Below are positions 9,940 through 56,514 of a DNA stretch of 64,000 nt, piece after piece. The stretch lies in NCBI RefSeq assembly GCF_009914755.1, contig NC_060944.1. The stretch is one strand, 5' to 3'. How positions within the stretch are numbered: the first letter of the stretch is position 1; each line of letters opens with the position of its first letter. This DNA comes from the human T2T-CHM13v2.0 reference genome, Homo sapiens. Both the position numbers and the translations under genes were made by a program. The notes beneath the pieces are model-generated. The model saw only the letters and a list, made by a program, of their open reading frames with translations, was not told the origin of the DNA and did no database searches.

Positions 9940-10401
9940 TGAATTATATTTTAGAGTCAAGGTTTTGAACACTAATATTCTCCTCTTTATAAATTCTCAT
10001 TCTACTTTTTTTTGTTTGTTTGGTTTTTGTTCCTATGCGTTAACTTCCTAGGCTGTAAATTTGGTTTGGAATGGTACAAATCTCATATGGAAGTTTGTAA
10101 GGGTAAAATCAATTATTCTCTATAAATCACTCACAACAGTACCTGGCACTGTTAGCCATTTTTACTTTTTTGAATTATATTTTAGAGTCAAGGTTTTGAA
10201 CACTAATATTCTCCTCTTTATAAATTCTCATTCTACTTTTTTTTGTTTGTTTGGTTTTTGTTCCTATGTGCTAACTTCCTAGGCTGTAAATTTGGTTTGG
10301 AATGGTACAAATCTCATATGGAAGTTTGTAAGGGTAAAATCAATTATTCTCTATAAATCACTCACAACAGTAGCTGGCACTGTTAGCCATTTTTACTTTT
10401 T
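9940..10401. repeat. Tandem duplication, 2 x 231 bp
   Basis: 9940-10170 and 10171-10401 are identical except for 3 substitutions. Confidence 0.97.
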
Positions 10402-12730: not shown

Positions 12731-13576
12731 ATCCAACCATGAACTCTTACAGAACAGCCTTGATTATTGGATTCTGGCAAGTGGGTCTATTTCCAGGGCA
12801 CTGGAAATAGATTGGCTCAGACCTACTGTCCTGAGATGTGGCAGGGTCATGGGTAAAAGCTTAGGGAGACTTCACTTTAGTGAAGAGCTTTATTCGATGA
12901 AGAATATTTGCCTCTTTTCCTCCCTTTCTGCCTTCTAAAATAAGCAGGCACAAGCTCCTTTGATAAGGTAGAAATGGTTTGGAAGGAACAGGTGGACTTA
13001 GCTCTGGATAAGTCAGGGGACTAGCTGAAACTAGATACGGGTGTCAAATAAAAGATTTCTGGAACTTGGGCTTAATCACGGCCTGCCTGTGCAGCCTCAG
13101 TGAAAACAAAATAGTAGGAATCCAAAGATGAAGTAGACTAGAGGATCAGCAAGGGCTCCAAAGAAAGAGTATTTGGTGAATCTATGGTCAGGCTTTAGTG
13201 GTTCAGAGAAGAATGGCACAGTATTTCAATACTCAGAGGAGACAGACAAATCTGGAGAGATGGGGACAAAGCAAATCTAGATGTCTATGTTTCTATGGAA
13301 GCAGGTCTCTGAAGGCTTCCCTGATTCTAGCAATATCCACCTATTGAGTATCTAGCACACATGAGTGCAGATGTTGGGTATCTTGTCACATTAGTGCATC
13401 AGTTTACCAGACATGGATCCACTCAGTCAGCGAGGCTATGGTCTAAGCTTTTACCCATGACCCTGCCACATCTCAGGACAGTAGGTCTGAGCCGATCTAT
13501 TTCTAGTGCCCTGGAAATAGACCCACTTGCCAGAATCCAAGAATCAAGGCTGTTTAGTAAGAGTCCATGGTTGGAT
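12731..13576. repeat. 134-bp inverted repeat (12731-12864 and 13443-13576) with 578-bp spacer
   Basis: The reverse complement of the right arm matches the left arm at 128/134 positions with no gaps. Confidence 0.95.
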
Positions 13577-48170: not shown

Positions 48171-51100
48171 AAGGACAAATCTTAGTTGCTGCCTTGAGCT
48201 GATATAGAAATGAAAGTTAGATATATGTTTTATAAATTACTTGAGTTTTAAACTTTTTGTCTTTTAACTTGAAGCTTGAAATAATTTATCCAAGGATTTT
48301 AAGAAACTGTGGCAAAGGTTTTAGAGTAAATTCTGAACTTTCCAGATGGGAGTATTTCAAGGCCACAGAGTTTTATTAAGGCATGATGGCTGCCTTGGCT
48401 TTCTTTGGGTGGGCTTGTTGGTCTTTAGTAGCATCATTACTTTGTAGAGTAGATTGATAAATGGAAAAGCAGTGAAGTCTAATCAGCTAGGATTACGCCT
48501 AGCAGAAACCTTTCATGGTAAGCTGATGGGCAAAAACACTGAAAATAATAGCCATGCACCCACTCACACAAGAACTGAAATATCTGGGAACGTAATGCTA
48601 GTGCATTTGTGCTCCGTTCCCCTAACAGCACAATTAGTGAATTGGAATCAGATTTCATTGCCTGGCATTCTCCTGAGATCTTTTACTTTCTATCCTTCTA
48701 TGGCCCCATTCCCAAGCATCATAATCAGAAAGGCCAATTTACCTGAAATGAATATGTAACTTGTTTCGAAATGAAATGCAGTTGGTTATTGGATTGTCAG
48801 TCTCTTCCATTTGTGTGGCTGCAATTTTCACTATTTTAAGGGTCTGCTATTGAAACAGCTTCTGTCCATTCACGTTAGAATGCAAGGTTCACATTTAATA
48901 GTCTTAAGGGAGAGCGCCTGGCGCTTACTGAATTACCCAGTAGAACCATTCTGGGTACTTGGTGTCCTGGAGTCACCAAACTGCCTTCTTGGAAAACAGC
49001 CAACCATACCCCAAATAATAGAGGAGCCAGATTCCAGGGCTAATAGTAATAAATGTTTAAAAGAATGAAACACATTATATTTAAGGGGAAAACTACCCTT
49101 TGGGTTTTTTCCCTGGAAACTTTAGAAGTAATGACTAAATTGAAGCAACAATCTTACAAACAAACAAGTACACCTCTGGAGATGTCATTTTAATCACAGC
49201 ATACTGAAGAGAGCCTGTAGACATTAGCCAAACACATTATTTCTTCTTATTATAGCAGGCTCGTTTCTCCCATTTAATAGCAGTAGCTCACACATAGCTC
49301 TAAAACCTGGAGTTTGTTTTATTGAGGAATGTTTGGACCTAAACAGTTGCTTCATTATTTTCTTAAATTCCCAGCAGGTGATCTTCAAAAGACACGCGAA
49401 CTCGATTAAAATCAAATAGCAGGCAAAGCTAAAACATTCATATTCCCCTGTAAGTATCTTCTGGTCTTTCTTCAGTCTCTGGCTGTTCATTTATTGCAGC
49501 TTCCCTATGATTTTTCCCTTTGTCTTACACATTCTGGCTGGCTTCATTTCTAAGCTTTCTTAATTCAATCCACCAAATATCTGGCATACTAACATTTCAG
49601 GTGACAGAGGAAGCCAAATATAAGCTGGTTATAGAATTCAAGATTCTCAAGATTCTTCCTCCTACCTCTATCTGTGCTGTGAAAAGAAGAATTAGCCCGT
49701 AAATCCCAGACATACTGATACTTGGATAGTTAGCCCATGAAGAATGTCATTTACTCAGCCTCTTGTATGATCCTTCTTTGGGGATAACTTTTATAATGCT
49801 ATGGAAAGGCTCTGGCTATACTTGTTACAGTCCTCACACATCCATCAAGAGATGAGAGGTAGAGTGAGGGGAACATGCGCAGAAAGGAGGAGACATCGCT
49901 GGGAATTACAGATATTTCCAACACGATCAATTAATCAGATGGCTTTTTCAGATAATTGCTCACAAATCTTTATACTACGAGGAAGGATTTCTGGGCTCCA
50001 TTCATATCACTGTGAGTGGCAGTTGGAAAAGGAGCATCCAGAGCTAACTGAATTTAGCTAGAAGACAGATCTTACTGGTATTATGGAGGGACTTAACTCC
50101 TTGGAAGAATCTTAACAATGTCTTAGGGTTTGTTAATTTAATTTTAGTTGACTTAATTTTCTACTAAGAGTATAGTGTTCTGTTTTCAGCAATAGTAAGA
50201 AAGAATGTCTTGTGGAAGCAATTTCATGGTTGCCTTTCATGTAAATTTTAGAAGCCTAAAAGCACAGGCGATCAATCTCTAGTCTACTTGGTATCCCATC
50301 ATAAAGCTGCTCTCCAAACATTAGTTGCTTCTTGGTCTCCTGACTGAACTCTTGGCATTATCAATAAAGTAATATTTTTAAATTACTTATTTTTGTGACC
50401 TATAGTATCTCTTGGGATAATAAACTTGATATGCTTATTAACCAAGGAGAATTTTTCTCTATTACTCCTAGATTTAACTTTTTAAAATGTCGATGGTAAA
50501 GTCTGTATTCTTGTTAGCCACACACTTTAAGATTTTAGACTCTTTGCTATATTCTTTTATTCTTTTACTTTGTCTTTTCAAACCGAAGAGTTCTGTTTCT
50601 TAGTCTGTTCTCATAAAGAAGCCCCTTGTTCAGTTTAATAGCTCTTCTCTGGTTGTCTCCATTCCAGTTCTTGGTTTTCTTGAGCTATAATGACCAAATG
50701 ATACACATGGCTCCAGGTGTGGGTAAACCATGTTTCCATAGAGGGGGTGGATAAAGTTTTCTGCTTCGTTTCCAATAGTCTTTTTCATGCTGTTTAGGAT
50801 TCTGTAGCCTTCTCAGCCACAAGAGCACATTGTGCTTATTTCTTCAAGTCTGCAGTATGACTCTTTTCTGAGTCATAATTGTTCAGATTATTTTGAGAGT
50901 AAGGTACACTACTATCCTTTGTTTATCTAACTTCTGTTGCTACTGAAACATTTGGTAATAACCAGGGATCTTTGAAATAGTGTAGGAAAACCTCAATCTA
51001 TTGATCCCAGATTTATTTTCTCCTGGACAATGTTCTTATTTTAATTGAATCATTTTTTCCATTACAAGAATTTGGTTTTCTAAAGGAGTGAGGTTTCATG

Positions 51101-51669
51101 GTGGGAAACACTTTATAGATGGCGTAGATATCATATTTTTTTCAAAGTTAGTATACTGAGTGTACTTTTACCACATCAGTATTTTGTTCTTCATAACATT
51201 ATATGTATAATGTCTCCATTAAACATGTAATATATAAACACTGTGCGTTCAGTGTTCCAGTGAAGAGGACAGAAACGGAAAGCAGAAAACATGAGGTTTG
51301 ATTCAGATGGAGTCTGATCAGGGCAATTTAAGCTCTCTCTGTCTCAAAACCTCAGCATTACCATTCATAAGTCAAAGATGGTAACCCTTGGACTGACATT
51401 GTAAAATTAATAGCATGATCCTTCTGGGGGTATTTGGAGATTTTTGAGAATAAGGGACTATTTAGGTTTAATTGATGATAGTATTAAAACAATGAGTCGA
51501 AAAAAGTTTACATATTACTTATGGCAGTATCACATACTGATTAACAGAAAGACTCCCTGGACTCAGACTTAAGTAAGAATCTGAGCTCACCTCATATTGC
51601 CTCAGTGACTTTGGGGGAGTTTGTTGAACTTTCTCTCAACCCCAAGTTTACTGGGGGAAGAATGACAAC

Positions 51670-52480
51670 GAAAAATTGTATATATGTAAGGTGTACAATG
51701 TTATGTTTCGATGTATTCACACATTGTAAAATGTGTCTAGTCCCAAGTAGAGGAACCCACACCAGATTAATGGTAAAGTCTGTAGTAATGTAGAACCTTA
51801 CTAAAGTCAAAGACAAAGAGAAAATTCTACAACAGCAGGAGGAAAGTGTGTAAAATGATTATCACAATCAAGCTAACATATCCATCGGCTCACTTAGTTA
51901 CTATTTTCTTTTTTGTGGTAAGAACACTTGAGATCTACTCTCTCAGCAAATTTCAGGCATATGATATATTTGTTATTAACTACAGTCACCATTCTGTAGA
52001 TTGGGTCTCCAGAAATCCAGAACTTATTCATGTTATAACTGAAGGTTTGTACCCTTTGACTAACATCTCCCTTTTCTCCCCATCCCCAATCTCCTGCTAA
52101 ACACTGTTCTACTCTCTGTTACTTTGAGTTTGATTTTTTTAAAGGTTCTACCATTAGTGAGGTCATGCAATATTTGTCTTTCTGTGTCTGGATTATTTCA
52201 CTTAGCATGATGTCCTCCAATTTTACCTATGTTGTTGCAAATGACAGTATTTCCTTTTCTTAAAAGGCTGCATAGTATTCCATTGTGTATATATATATCA
52301 CATTTTCTTTACCCATTCTTCTGTATTCAGATACTTTATTTCCATATTTTGGCTACTATGAATAATGCTGCAACAAACGTGAGCATGCAGATATCTCTTT
52401 GAGATAGTGATTTTATTTCCTTCAGATATATATACCCAGAAGTGGGATTGTTGGCTAATATGGTAGTTCTATTTTACTTT
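51670..52480 (-). mobile_element. L1MA 3' end carrying a templated insertion at 51733-51849
   Basis: aaaattgtatatatgtaaggtgtacaa...gtggtaagaacacttgagatctactctctcagcaaatttca...atacccagaagtgggattg. Confidence 0.88.
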
Positions 52481-52489
52481 TTAAAATTG

Positions 52490-53298
52490 TGTTTATTTAT
52501 TTTTGATTGACAAAAATTGTATATATTTATGGTGGACAACATAACGTTTTGATATATGTATACATTGTGGTATCACTAAATCAAGCCAATTAATATATAC
52601 ATTACTTCACATATCATTTTTATGCATTGAGAACACAAAAATCCCTCTTAGCAATTTTCAAATATACAATATATTATTATTAACTATAATCATCAGGATA
52701 TACAATAGACCTCTGGAACTTACTCATTCTAACTGATATTACCAATATCTCCCCAATGCCCCCATCCTCTAGCCCCTGGTAATCACCAGTCATTCTGTTC
52801 TCTGACTCTATGATATCAACTTTTCTTAGATTCCACCTATAAGTGAGAATCATGCAGTATTTATCTTTCTGTGCCTGGATTACATTATTTCACATAACAT
52901 CCCCCAGGTCTATCTGTGTCACAAATGACAGGGATTTTTTTTTCTTTTTTAAGGCTGAATAGTATTCTATTGTGTATAAATACCACATTTTCATTATCCT
53001 TTCAACCACTGATGAACACTTAGGTTGATTTCATACCTTGGCTATTATGAAAAATGCTGCAATGAACATGAGAGTGTGAGTATCTCTTCAACATACTAAT
53101 TTCATGTTTTTGGATACATATCCAATGGTGGGATTGCTGGGTCATACCATAGTTCTATTTTTAATATTTTGAGGAACTTCCATACTGTATTACATAATAT
53201 CATACCAATTTACAAATTCACCAACAGTATACTAGAGTTCCCATGTTCCACATCCTTGCCAACACTTTTTATCTTTTGTCTTTTAAATACTAGCAATC
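52490..53298 (-). mobile_element. Second L1MA 3' end, adjacent to or nested in the first
   Basis: New antisense tail tttatttatttttgattgacaaaaattgtatatattt, then agattccacctataagtgag and gaggaacttccatactg. Confidence 0.85.
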
Positions 53299-53629
53299 TG
53301 TAAAAACCACTTAGCATAATATTTAGAATACAATAAGCCCTAAATATACTAGCTACAATAATAATTTCTACTACTACTATTATTATTAATTTGGGACCTC
53401 AGGATTTTTCATTATAACTAAATTTGAAATTTATCCACTATGGTAGAATATATTGGGTAAATGAATTAAAGTTTAAAAGCTTATAGACTAATGAAAAATG
53501 TTTTCCAATTACTATTTTATATGTCAAAGTAAAATTATAATTAAACTTGGTATGTAAAAAATAAACACATAAAACATTACAATATAATAAGGGCTACTTC
53601 AGAGGTTGCATAAAGGGCTGGAGAATCCA

Positions 53630-54108
53630 GTGACTATTGTGGATACCTGTGATTTATGAGAACTACTTTTTGTAATATCACCCACTTTTTCCTCTGTGGA
53701 ACTCCCTTAGGTGATCTTGACTCCACCTTTGACTCCAAAGCTGGATACTTGTTTCTGGCCTGGCCAATCACAGCATTGTATCCTGCTCACAGAGTGACTG
53801 GTTCAAAGACTGATACAGGACTGTGAAAATCAGGCATAGGACTTGGTTTAAACGTCTGGGAGAGATGCTTCTTCCTCTTTCCTGAACTCAAAATTGTGAT
53901 GATGGAATCCCAGAATGATTGGTCTTTATATTGCTGTAGTGAAAGAAGTTCCTGTTTGTCAATGGGACCAGCACAGAGGGCCACAGAGCAGAGAGATTGA
54001 GACTAGGTCCTAATAATCCTGACATTTCCAGTTACTAATACCTTTATGCTTAAGCTAATATGAGTTGGGTTTTTATTACTTGCAGTCAAGAAAGTCTTGG
54101 CATATACA
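53630..54108 (+). mobile_element. MLT1 LTR
   Basis: ctggcctggccaatcacagcatt and tgcttaagctaatatgagttgggtttttattacttgcag. Confidence 0.7.
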
Positions 54109-54344
54109 AATAATGAATTAGACTTGGACAACAAGAAAGGTTCTATAAGAATTGATTCTAATATCATAGAATGAGGTGGAATAGAAAAAATTCAAAAATG
54201 GGCAAACTTTTAAGATAAAGGGGAGTAAGAAGGCCGAGACACAAATATATGAAATGGCATGTTTGAAAAATACGGTATCAGTATGGCCAAATCTTATAAA
54301 TCTCTGATGGTAATGTTTTGACCAGCCAGTTTTCTTCTATCTGT

Positions 54345-54560
54345 GGGCAGTATGGTATGGTTTAGAGAAAATGAGCTTGGGAGAAATTTAAATCCAAGAT
54401 AAATAAATTATTAAGTGTATGCCTTTAGGAAATTACCTAACCTTATTGAAACTCACTTTCCCATTCTTTGCTATGAGTATAAAAACACCCACTTTTCATG
54501 GTTGTTTGAAAGACTAAGTTAAAATTATGTATGGAAAGTTCCTAAAACAGTTCCTGCCTG
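54345..54560 (+). mobile_element. MIR
   Basis: ggcagtatggtatggtttagag...ttaggaaattacctaacct...ctcactttccc. Confidence 0.6.
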
Positions 54561-54565
54561 TCATG

Positions 54566-56514
54566 AAGTCTGTTGTATTTGATATATAAGTACAGCTACT
54601 CCTGCTCACTTTTGTTTTCTTATTGCTTGGAATTTTTTTTTTCATCCCTTTCCTTGCAGTTTATATGTGTCTTTACGTGTGAGATGAGTGTCTTGTAAGC
54701 AGAATATAGCTAGGTCGCTTTTTAAAAACTCCACTCAGCCAGTCTATATCTTTTAAGTAAAGTTTAATTTTTTACCTTTAAGGCCATTATTGAGATGTAA
54801 GAGATTATTTCTGTGATTTTATTAATTGACTTCTGGCTATTTTGTGTGTCATTTATTCCTTTCTTGTTTATCATTGTGACTGTGGTTTTCTGTAGTGGTA
54901 ACATTTGAGTCCTTTCCTTCCTCTTCCTTATTTGTGTATTTGCTTTATCAGTGGGTTTTATACTTCCATGCGTTTTCATGATGGTAGCTATCTTCCATTT
55001 GCTGTCAGGTGTAGAACTCCCTTAAGCATCATTTGTAGGACCAGTTTAGTGGTGATAGAATCCCTCAGCTATTGCTTGTTTGGGAAAAGTTTTATTTCTC
55101 CTTTGTATATGAAGGATTGTTTTGGAGAGGTTATTGCATCCTTAGCAGATTTTTTTCAGCACTTTAAATATATCATCCCATTCTCTTCTGACCTGTAAGG
55201 TTTCTGCTGAGAAATCTACTATTAATCTGGTGTGGGTTCCTCTACTTGGGACTAGACACTTTCCTCCTGACTGTTGTAGAATTTTCTCTTTGTCTTTGAC
55301 TTTAGTACGTTTCTCTATAGTGTGTCATGGAGAAGACCTTTTTACATTGTATCTATTTGGGGACCTCAAAGCCTCCTATATCTGGTTGTCTAAATCTCTT
55401 GCTAGACTTGTGAAGTTTTCAGCTATTATTTTGTTAGATAGGTTTTCTATCCCTTTCATTTTTTCTTTGCCTTCTGGGACACTGAAAACTTGAATATTTG
55501 GTTGCCTTGTGGTGTCCTATATGTCACATAGGCTTCGTTCATTCTTATTTCTTATTTTTGTCTCCATGAGTTATTTTTAAAAACCCGTCTTCAAGTTCTG
55601 AGATTGTTTCTTCTCCTTGATCTAGTCCATTGTTAAAGCTTTCAAATGTATTTTGTATTTCATTTAATGAATTCTCTGCGTCCAGAATTTGTTTGGTTCT
55701 TTTTTAAATGATATCCACCTCTTCAGTAAATTTATCATTCATGTCCTGAATTGTTCTCCTGATTTTTGTCTTGCTTTTATATATTATCTTGTATCTCACT
55801 GAGCTTCCTTAATATCGGTATTTTAAATTTTTTTCTGGAGTTTTATAAATTTCTTTTTTATTGGAATCCATTGCTGGAGAATTATTGCATTCCTTGGAAG
55901 GCATGATATTTCCTTGCTTTTTCAGGCTTCCTTTGTTTTTATGTTGATACCTGGGCATCTTGAGTAATAGTCATTTATTCTAATTTTTTGGATTTGCTTT
56001 CATAGGTGAGAACTTTTTCCTGGAGAGGTATCTATGGTGTTGGTTGGGTAGGGCACTTTGGCTTTGTATCTGGGTATATGCAGTAGTGCAGTTTCCACAT
56101 GATTTCTTTAGCTGTAAACAGTGTCAGTGGTGTCTGCTATTTCCTCAGTGGCTTAGGGTGTGGTTGTTAGTGGAGGCTGTGGTGAAATTTTTCTGGGTAC
56201 CGGGATGCCAGCTGGGCCAGTTCTTGGACCTTAGTGGCTGCAGTGGTGGGTCAAGCCTACTGCCCTCTCCTTGGGCCCTGGGGTGGTATATACTGGCACT
56301 GATGTCAGCAGGCCCAGGTGGGTTAATTCTTGGGCCTCCAGGTGGCCTCCTTCAGGGCTGGTAGTGGCAGTGACTGGCTGGGCATGATCTCTGGTTCTTG
56401 GGCAGAAGGTATGGCATGGGCAATATCAGTAGCAGTAATGGAACAAGGCTCTGATTCCCAAGCAGCCTGCACTGGTGTCGGCAATGGCTGGGCCACACCC
56501 CAGGCTGGCAAGGT

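What the first reader, a model, noticed from the sequence alone, without database searches (positions are those of the whole stretch)
51725..51857. Circularly permuted, inverted copy of nearby L1 ORF1 sequence inserted with a 9-bp duplication
Seen: an insert of about 115 bp interrupts an L1MA 3' end and is flanked by tgtaaaatg (51725-51733 and 51849-51857). Segment A (51733-51771) is the exact 39/39 reverse complement of 55221-55259. Segment B (51799-51849) is the reverse complement of 55256-55307 with one base missing. In the donor, B comes before A on that strand and they overlap by gtgt; in the insert the order is A, 27-bp filler, B. The filler has a 15-bp exact match to 50493-50507 (atggtaaagtctgta) and a gapped inverted match to 52142-52156. 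The donor is bracketed by imperfect direct repeats gtaaggtttct (55195) and gtacgtttct (55305). Inference: either a small circle of about 110 bp formed at those microhomologies, reopened and reintegrated 3.5 kb away, or serial template switching (Pol theta-mediated end joining, MMBIR/FoSTeS) copied several local templates. Near-perfect identity to this old, diverged L1 copy implies a local and relatively recent germline event.
Basis: partly seen in the sequence, partly recalled or inferred. Interest (0 to 1): 0.8.

Follow-up and report, generated by a model that had tools for sequence, protein, structure and literature searches.

The report
Patchwork DNA insertion copied from neighbours
A 115-base insertion in an old L1 repeat on human chromosome 20 is a repair scar stitched together from four short copies of sequences lying within 3.5 kb, and its swapped order looks like a re-inserted DNA circle but is better explained by error-prone copying at a chromosome break.

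Summary
A 115-bp insert (51734-51848), flanked by a 9-bp duplication, interrupts an L1 3'-end. Eight of 8 printed L1 paralogs carry that 9-mer once.

The insert holds two inverted copies of one local donor, in swapped order: 39/39 and 51/52 identical. They abut at the same 4 bp of the donor (55256-55259). Genome-wide, the 39-mer occurs only in the insert and the donor.

The 27-nt filler is not the missing donor stretch. Thirteen of its nt, within an exact 15-mer, come from 50493-50507. This 15-mer has 10 genome copies, one of them 1.28 kb away. Another 13-14 nt match 52142-52156 inverted with a 1-nt deletion (local p about 0.01). One base is unassigned. Joints share 0-3 nt.

Best reading (about 0.8): iterative, low-microhomology, error-prone templated synthesis at a break or collapsed fork (MMBIR/FoSTeS or atypical Pol theta class). 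The swap arises because both sides of the break were extended outwards from one donor point.

A re-integrated circle of about 110 bp (about 0.1) would need an extra patch and does not explain filler templates lying beside the target.

The event is at most about 15-20 Myr old. It sits in a CASC20 intron and has no evident function. Primate, pangenome and read checks were not possible.

The parts
51640..51960 (.). Host: decayed L1 3'-end sequence that the insert interrupts
   Evidence: both flanks match many L1 copies (1057 first-look candidates, 40 scored, 79-85% identity on the right flank); paralogs run through the site with one copy of the 9-mer. The orientation of the L1 was not settled by any search.
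51725..51733 (+). Left copy of the 9-bp duplication TGTAAAATG
51733..51771 (+).
51770..51784 (+). Tract T2: direct copy of 50493-50507, 15/15. It shares AT with T1.
   Evidence: (family D8).
51785..51785 (+). Single G with no assigned template
51786..51799 (+). Tract T3: inverted copy of 52142-52156 with one G of a GG pair skipped (14 of 15 template bases). Suggestive only.
   Evidence: (reached by 1.0% of 400 shuffles and 1.8% of 400 random 14-mers within about 1.2 kb).
51799..51849 (+).
51849..51857 (+). Right copy of the 9-bp duplication
55221..55307 (-). Donor, intact, inside a decayed L1 ORF1 frame. T1 and T4 both start from the 4 bp 55256-55259 and run in opposite directions.
   Evidence: Tnp_22_dsRBD E 1.8e-4 at 21.9 bits against a cut-off of 22.2; Transposase_22 E 1.2e-3 at 19.6 bits against 22.4.
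55195..55205 (-). Imperfect direct repeat, lower copy, of the one at 55305-55314 that brackets the donor. It is the predicted closing point of a circle.
   Evidence: 8-mer AACCTTAC shared with 51794-51801; pair I2.
55305..55314 (-). Imperfect direct repeat, upper copy
50493..50507 (+). Template of T2
   Evidence: 10 exact genome copies of the 15-mer against 14 for the reversed control. One of them lies here, 1.28 kb from the insert.
50483..50489 (+). TAAAATG, identical to the last 7 nt of the target's left end, 3 nt upstream of the T2 template. Possible anchor for a loop-out priming step.
   Evidence: chance of such a 7-mer within 5, 10 or 20 nt upstream of a random site is 0.18%, 0.36% or 0.72%. 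Noticed post hoc.
52142..52156 (-). Candidate template of T3, 0.3 kb right of the insert
   Evidence: 5 exact genome copies against 12 for the control; its 63-nt context aligns to the donor context upstream of and into B with score 16, against shuffles at 9.55 +/- 1.9; 0.85% of 2000 shuffles reach it.

Best explanation
A chromosome break or collapsed replication fork inside an old L1 3'-end (at 51733) was repaired by several rounds of short, low-fidelity DNA synthesis. Each round was primed with almost no homology on a nearby template.

Four tracts were copied:
- 39 nt from 55259 down to 55221 (inverted)
- 13-15 nt from 50493-50507 (direct)
- about 14 nt from 52156 down to 52142 (inverted, one base skipped)
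- 51 nt from 55307 down to 55256 (inverted, one base skipped)

The strand then rejoined the target so that 9 bp ended up duplicated. All donors stayed intact, so this was copying, not cutting.

The apparent circular permutation has a geometric explanation. The left junction and the right junction are exactly the two junctions that an inversion between 51733 and 55256-55259 would have.

My preferred sub-model (about 45%) is two-ended. The left 3' end was extended on one strand, and the right 3' end on the other strand, of the same donor point. That point was possibly the two tails of a second break there, which would make this an aborted inversion. Both products dissociated. The right one folded back on its own tail to give T3, a further local template gave T2, and the two were sealed.

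The alternative sub-model (about 35%) is one nascent strand hopping through all four templates in series (FoSTeS/MMBIR) and re-annealing at TGT, 9 nt upstream of where it left.

Shown: the tracts, their templates, their uniqueness, the joints and the single-copy state in paralogs. Inferred: the break, the enzymes, the order of the steps and the germline timing.
For: - T1 and T4 are unique to this donor genome-wide. No other locus has the A-filler-B order (the 27-mer with up to 3 mismatches is found once, as itself).
- The filler is templated locally. The 15-mer has 10 genome copies and one lies 1.28 kb away. By arithmetic from that count, 9 other copies x 2.6 kb / 3.1 Gb is about 1e-5, and stays below 1e-3 after allowing for about 20 possible 15-mers.
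- The filler tiles into 3 exact local pieces. None of 500 shuffles and none of 500 random 27-mers do so using 50400-52700.
- The remaining 14 nt align 13/14 with one gap to 52143-52156 inverted. Within about 1.2 kb, 1.0% of 400 shuffles and 1.8% of 400 random 14-mers reach this.
- All four templates lie within 4.8 kb and in both orientations.
- Joints share 1, 2, 0, 1 and 1-3 nt.
- There are two single-base skips and no substitution in about 117 copied nt. This points to errors made during a low-fidelity synthesis rather than later decay.
- The T2 template is preceded by the target's terminal 7-mer. This is expected if T2 was primed by a strand already carrying the target end plus T1.
- The T3 context is homeologous to the donor context at the T3-to-B switch (junction J4 is 8/14 against a background mean of 4.45, P(>=8) = 0.034).
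- T3 has the strand and direction expected for fold-back of the right-hand 3' tail on itself (reasoning).
- Literature read as passages: multi-step template switching with short templated insertions (PMC8421209); fold-back and cross-junction classes (PMC11541566); extended break ends joined by Pol theta giving duplications (PMC7368036).
Against: - Tract lengths (39 and 51 nt) and template distances (0.3-3.4 kb) are far outside typical Pol theta insertions. Those have net templates mostly under 10 bp, peak within 20 bp of the break, and use 2-3 nt of microhomology (PMC11541566, passages).
- Priming homology at 8 of the 10 joint directions tested is at background, and one joint has none.
- T3 rests on p of about 0.01-0.06, depending on the region searched. 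The exact-tiling test of the same 14 nt is not significant: 317 of 2000 shuffles and 488 of 2000 random 14-mers do as well.
- The last 8 nt of the filler plus the B start also match the donor's own lower repeat (AACCTTAC). The whole filler aligns weakly to the missing donor stretch, reached by 1.8% of 2000 shuffles. A circle predicts both.
- The one-ended chain does not explain why copying left the donor within 4 nt of where it first entered.
- The two-ended version needs both ends to find the same ectopic point, or needs a second break. Nothing in the sequence shows either.
- The 7-mer anchor was noticed after the fact.
Confidence: 0.8

Rival explanations
1. Small-circle re-integration. A copy of about 110 bp of the donor closed into a circle at the imperfect direct repeats 55195-55205 and 55305-55314. 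It was then opened at GTGT and ligated into a staggered break 3.4 kb away.
For: - The swapped order of two contiguous donor blocks in the same relative orientation, with start and end at the same donor point, is the dot-plot signature used for eccDNA-mediated duplication (PMC7188851, read in part).
- The donor is bracketed by 10-11-nt imperfect direct repeats 110 bp apart.
- The insert reads AACCTTAC across the predicted closing point.
- The filler aligns weakly to the missing stretch, reached by 1.8% of shuffles.
- Small circles from about 100 bp, direct repeats at their donor sites, and formation without a chromosomal deletion are all described (PMC11879418, passages).
Against: - About 15-18 nt of the would-be circle (within 55198-55220) are absent. 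Sequence whose 15-mer matches 50493-50507 takes their place.
- Under this model 7 nt stay unexplained, against 1 nt under the four-template model.
- The filler templates lie beside the target, not the donor.
- The T2 template is flanked by the target's own terminal 7-mer. A circle closed at the donor has no reason to show this.
[quoted passage not shown] That needs a staggered opening with fill-in.
Confidence: 0.1
2. RNA-mediated origin. A circular or lariat RNA from the CASC20 intron was reverse-transcribed across its joint and the cDNA patched a break. On the + strand the donor starts with GTAAGG at 55195 and has CTTTAG ending at 55304.
For: - The + strand, which is the CASC20 sense strand per the hub's table, shows splice-site-like motifs at both ends of the 110-nt interval.
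- A cDNA made across a circle joint would be permuted.
- Class 2 templated insertions attributed to RNA patches are described (PMC5110952, passages).
Against: - There is no poly(A).
- The target is not a TTTT/A site.
- The joint is one base off a 3'ss-5'ss join, and the implied branch point would sit 1 nt from the AG.
- The motifs are simply the reverse complement of the L1 ORF1 direct repeat.
- The filler comes from two other loci on different strands.
Confidence: 0.02
3. Assembly or sequencing artefact in T2T-CHM13.
For: None found. Raw reads could not be inspected.
Against: - The structure is clean: an exact 9-bp duplication, exact tracts and unique flanks.
- It lies in ordinary single-copy-like sequence.
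- Chimeric reads do not usually produce target duplications.
Confidence: 0.03

Closest known systems
FoSTeS / MMBIR iterative template switching (complex breakpoint insertions; MMB-TI of Osia et al. 2021, PMC8421209)
   Same: Several short tracts copied from nearby templates in direct and inverted orientation. Little or no microhomology at the joints, intact donors, and small synthesis errors.
   Different: The net result is a bare 115-bp insertion with a 9-bp duplication and no copy-number change of a larger segment. One donor point is used twice, in opposite directions. MMBSearch looks only within 100 bp for a single inverted template (passages read).
Pol theta-mediated end joining with templated insertions (fold-back, cross-junction and strand-switch classes; PMC11541566, PMC7368036)
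   Same: 3' tails primed at tiny homologies, abortive rounds of synthesis, and inverted (fold-back) and direct (cross-junction) copies. T3 fits a fold-back on the right-hand tail.
   Different: Typical templates are under 10 bp and within 20 bp of the break. Here the tracts are 14-51 nt and lie 0.3-3.4 kb away. No enzyme can be assigned from sequence.
[quoted passage not shown]
   Same: Swapped order of two contiguous donor blocks, kept in one orientation, inserted elsewhere. The donor is retained.
   Different: Their 3 strong cases come from segmental duplications over 1 kb. Here the insert is 115 bp, part of the would-be circle is missing, and it is replaced by copies of two other local sites.
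Short-range template-switch mutations (Loytynoja and Goldman 2017, PMC5453318, listing only; Loytynoja 2022, PMC9435742, passages)
   Same: An inverted copy of nearby sequence written during replication.
   Different: That model is one switch and return within 250 bp or less, searched in 150-bp contexts. This event has four tracts and reaches 3.4 kb, so such scans would miss it.
Templated sequence insertion polymorphisms, classes 1 and 2 (PMC5110952)
   Same: A patch templated elsewhere in the genome fills a break. A target duplication of at least 5 bp is a class 1 trait.
   Different: It has no poly(A), no TTTT/A site and no distant or RNA-type donor. It has a duplication, unlike class 2.

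Membership tests
Iterative template switching (FoSTeS/MMBIR class) | Two or more tracts copied from different nearby templates within one event | tested here: met
   There are four tracts from three loci within 4.8 kb. T3 is only suggestive (p about 0.01-0.06).
Iterative template switching (FoSTeS/MMBIR class) | Microhomology (about 2-5 nt) at each switch | tested here: inconclusive
   Shared bases at the joints are 1, 2, 0, 1 and 1-3. Only one joint (T3 to B) shows extended homeology: 8/14, and a context alignment reached by 0.85% of shuffles.
Iterative template switching (FoSTeS/MMBIR class) | Donors retained (copying, not transfer) | tested here: met
   All three template loci are present and continuous in the window.
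Iterative template switching (FoSTeS/MMBIR class) | Error-prone synthesis near the joints | tested here: met
   There are two 1-nt skips in about 117 copied nt and no substitution. That these arose at the event is inferred.
Pol theta end joining with templated insertion | Templates close to the break (peak within 20 bp) and short (mostly under 10 bp net) | tested here: not met
   Templates lie 0.3, 1.24 and 3.4 kb away and tracts are 14-51 nt. The reference values come from PMC11541566 passages.
Pol theta end joining with templated insertion | Dependence on POLQ | not testable with these tools
   This needs genetics.
eccDNA (microDNA)-mediated duplication | Two contiguous donor blocks in swapped order and the same orientation, with ends meeting at one donor point | tested here: met
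   A and B overlap at 55256-55259.
eccDNA (microDNA)-mediated duplication | The whole circle content is present in the insert, with a single closing joint | tested here: not met
   55198-55220 is replaced by 27 nt, of which 13-15 match 50493-50507 and 13-14 match 52142-52156.
eccDNA (microDNA)-mediated duplication | Short direct repeats at the donor flanks | tested here: met
   Imperfect 10-11-nt repeats lie at 55195-55205 and 55305-55314.
eccDNA (microDNA)-mediated duplication | Physical circle detected | not testable with these tools
   No circle-sequencing data were available.
L1 endonuclease / target-primed reverse transcription (class 1 TSIP) | Target duplication of at least 5 bp | tested here: met
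   A 9-bp duplication is present.
L1 endonuclease / target-primed reverse transcription (class 1 TSIP) | Poly(A) tail and a TTTT/A nick site at the edge of the duplication | tested here: not met
   No A or T run sits at either end of the insert. The duplication edges read CAT|TGT and ATG|ATT.
Short-range template-switch mutation (four-point model) | A single switch and return within about 250 bp | tested here: not met
   There are four tracts and templates up to 3.4 kb away. The criterion comes from PMC9435742 passages.

The most novel reading that the evidence does not exclude
The insert is the footprint of a microDNA-sized (about 110-115 bp) extrachromosomal circle. The circle was born at the L1 ORF1 direct repeats, picked up a templated patch when it closed, and was re-integrated 3.4 kb away in the germline. 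That would make it the smallest base-resolved case of circle-mediated duplication in a human genome.
Probability: 0.1. Interest if true: 0.7.

Novelty: new member of a known kind. Interest (0 to 1): 0.4.

Why it matters
This is a clean, base-resolved example of a complex templated insertion fixed in, or at least present in, a human haplotype. It has four identifiable local templates.

It shows that a circular-permutation signature, which is used to call circle-mediated duplication, can also arise without a circle. That happens when both sides of a break are extended outwards from one ectopic point, which is the geometry of an aborted inversion.

Its template distances (0.3-3.4 kb) lie beyond the search ranges of published scans, which reach 100-500 bp. 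Events of this kind are therefore probably under-counted.

The locus itself is a CASC20 intron, 0.7 kb from a RefSeq silencer that it does not touch. It shows no sign of function.

Tried and rejected
- Chance. Rejected.
- Another genomic source already in A-filler-B order. None was found in T2T-CHM13.
- The filler as a decayed copy of the donor stretch 55198-55220. Only weak similarity, reached by 1.8% of 2000 shuffles.
- Exact tiling of the last 14 filler nt from local sequence. Not significant.
- A better ungapped source for 51782-51801. There were 81 hits at up to 3 mismatches against 384 for the control, and none was better than 2 mismatches.
- L1 endonuclease insertion. No poly(A) and no TTTT/A site.
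- Lariat or circular RNA cDNA. Considered because of splice-like motifs on the + strand. Rejected as above.
- Direction of synthesis from priming homology. Ten joint directions were tabulated and gave no clear winner.
- Orientation and ORF2 content of the host L1 by Pfam. Of 95 stop-free segments in 51500-56500, 93 matched no family and only the two ORF1 hits appeared. From recall of the L1 consensus (no call), the + strand at the target reads as L1 antisense.
- No primate, pangenome or read data could be reached with these tools.
- Supplements of the papers were not opened.

Full report
**1. Observation**

- TGTAAAATG stands at 51725-51733 and again at 51849-51857.
- Between the two copies, 51733-51771 is the exact reverse complement of 55221-55259 (39/39).
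- 51799-51849 is the reverse complement of 55256-55307, as exact runs of 37 and 14 nt. Donor base 55270 is skipped.
- On the donor strand B precedes A, and the two share GTGT (55256-55259). In the insert the order is A, 27 nt of filler, then B.

**2. Not chance, and no other source**

- With up to 3 mismatches, the 39-mer occurs twice in the 3.1-Gb T2T genome, in the insert and the donor. The reversed control gives 0.
- The 133-bp stretch matches in full only itself. The next two hits are the local donor at 94% and 96%. The other 24 of the 27 listed hits are L1 copies covering only the B part at 83-91%.
- The 27-nt filler with up to 3 mismatches is found once, as itself.
- So no locus in this assembly already has the A-filler-B order.
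- Among 23 exact repeats of 25 nt or more in the whole window, this pair belongs to one of only three duplications that are neither Alu nor simple sequence.

**3. The target**

Both flanks belong to an L1 3'-end family. A search gave 1057 first-look candidates, of which 40 were scored.
- 19 paralogous loci were fetched. 14 gave a hit to both flanks and 5 to the right flank only.
- In 11 of the 14, the left hit reaches the junction.
- In 5 of these (L013, L021, L022, L023, L028) the two hits overlap by exactly 9 nt.
- In the other 6, a set of near-identical chromosome 9 copies, the two hits abut.
- All 8 paralogs printed show the 9-mer position once, followed directly by the right-flank sequence.
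- The insert is therefore a 115-bp insertion (51734-51848) with a 9-bp target duplication.

I could not test the subfamily label L1MA. The donor lies in a decayed L1 ORF1 frame on the minus strand. It is supported only by two Pfam hits just under their cut-offs: Tnp_22_dsRBD at 21.9 bits against 22.2, and Transposase_22 at 19.6 bits against 22.4.

**4. The filler is the informative part**

It is not the donor stretch that a simple circle would carry. It aligns to 55198-55220 only weakly, at a level reached by 1.8% of 2000 shuffles.

*First template (T2).*
- 51770-51784 is an exact 15-mer copy of 50493-50507 in direct orientation. It shares AT with the end of A.
- That 15-mer occurs 10 times in the genome, against 14 for the reversed control. 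It is therefore not a repeat, yet one copy lies 1.28 kb away.
- By arithmetic from that count, proximity alone has a chance of about 1e-5. It stays below 1e-3 after allowing for the choice of 15-mer.
- The filler tiles into three exact local pieces. None of 500 shuffles and none of 500 random 27-mers do so.

*Second template (T3).*
- The remaining 14 nt align 13/14 with one skipped G to 52143-52156 inverted, 0.3 kb to the right.
- Within about 1.2 kb this is reached by 1.0% of shuffles and 1.8% of random 14-mers. Within about 5 kb the figures are 2.5% and 5.8%.
- An exact-tiling test of the same 14 nt is not significant.
- The 15-mer template has 5 genome copies.
- T3 is therefore likely but not proven.

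One base (51785) has no template.

**5. Joints**

- The shared bases are 1 (G), 2 (AT), 0, 1 (T) and 1-3 (T or TGT).
- Ungapped priming homology over 14 nt is at background (mean 4.45) for most joints in either direction of synthesis.
- T3 to B reaches 8/14 (P = 0.034). The 63-nt contexts of the T3 template and of the donor around the start of B align better than 99% of shuffles.
- The T2 template is preceded, 3 nt upstream, by TAAAATG, the last 7 nt of the target's left end. The chance of this is 0.2-0.7%. I noticed it after the fact.
- This anchor is what a loop-out priming step would use if the strand already carried the target end plus A. A circle closed at the donor has no use for it.

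**6. Mechanism**

All templates are intact, lie within 4.8 kb, and appear in both orientations. The copies carry two single-base skips but no substitution. This is the pattern of iterative, error-prone, templated repair synthesis: the FoSTeS/MMBIR class, or an unusually long-range form of Pol theta end joining.

The permutation has a simple geometric reading. Target-left joined to inverted 55259 downwards, and inverted 55256 upwards joined to target-right, are the two junctions of an inversion between the two sites.
- If both 3' ends of the target break were extended on the two strands of one donor point, each copies away from that point.
- This is most naturally the two single-stranded tails of a second break at 55256-55259, where a search from the tips would start.
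- After dissociation the products can only be joined far end to far end. That gives A-filler-B.
- The 4-nt overlap and the 9-bp duplication then reflect overlapping ends at the two sites.
- T3 has the strand and direction of a fold-back of the right tail on itself.
- This is the ectopic counterpart of the model in which an extended break end joined by Pol theta yields a tandem duplication (PMC7368036, passages).

The alternative is a single strand hopping through all four templates and re-annealing at TGT, 9 nt upstream. That explains the duplication neatly. It does not explain why copying left the donor within 4 nt of its entry point.

I put the class at about 0.8. Within it, the two-ended version is about 0.45 and the one-ended chain about 0.35.

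**7. Against this reading**

- The tracts (up to 51 nt) and distances (up to 3.4 kb) are far beyond typical Pol theta insertions. Those are under 10 bp, within 20 bp of the break, and use 2-3 nt of microhomology (PMC11541566, passages).
- Microhomology here is minimal.
- The end of the filler also fits the donor's own lower repeat (AACCTTAC). A circle closed at the direct repeats predicts this.
- Small circles from about 100 bp, with direct repeats at their donors and no chromosomal deletion, are described (PMC11879418, passages).
- Swapped-order duplications over 1 kb have been attributed to circles in the human genome, with 3 strong cases (PMC7188851, first two of four parts read).
- The circle reading therefore stays at about 0.1. 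It needs an added patch from two loci beside the target, leaves 7 nt unexplained, and needs a staggered opening.

**8. Other readings**

- L1-endonuclease insertion fails on poly(A) and the nick site.
- An RNA lariat or circle is suggested only by splice-like motifs. These are the reverse complement of the L1 repeat.
- An assembly artefact is unlikely but untested.

**9. Age and effect**

There are no substitutions in the 90 aligned nt of A and B. This bounds the copy-template divergence at about 3.3% (95%). With the recalled human-chimpanzee divergence of about 1.2%, the event is at most roughly 15-20 Myr old, and it may be much younger. Whether it is polymorphic is unknown.

The insert lies in a CASC20 intron and touches no annotated element (hub table).

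**10. Novelty**

The kind is known: a complex templated insertion. The particular architecture is four tracts, kb-range templates, and one donor point used in both directions.

Seven full-text searches were run. I judged them from their listings and from passages of seven papers. None described this architecture.

Published scans search only 100-500 bp around a break (PMC8421209, PMC9435742, PMC11541566), so they would miss it.

Noticed in passing
window 12731-12864 and 13443-13576: Inverted duplication with 134-nt arms, 96% complementary, and a 578-nt spacer. A whole-genome search finds no other copy, so it is a local inverted duplication rather than a transposon family.
   Followed up: partly
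window 9940-10401: Recent-looking tandem duplication with a 231-bp unit (9940-10170 and 10171-10401). Exact runs are 90, 30, 101 and 28 nt.
   Followed up: no
window 52163-52475 and 52850-53161: Two L1 3'-region fragments in the same orientation, 74-80% identical and offset by about 687 bp. Two different old L1 pieces therefore lie between the target and the donor (families D1, D2, D4, D5, D7).
   Followed up: no
window 55195-55321, + strand: Read in the sense of CASC20, the donor interval looks like a mini-intron: GTAAGG at 55195, CTTTAG ending at 55304, and a pyrimidine-rich run ending in TAG near 55321. This is probably just the reverse complement of the L1 ORF1 repeat.
   Followed up: partly
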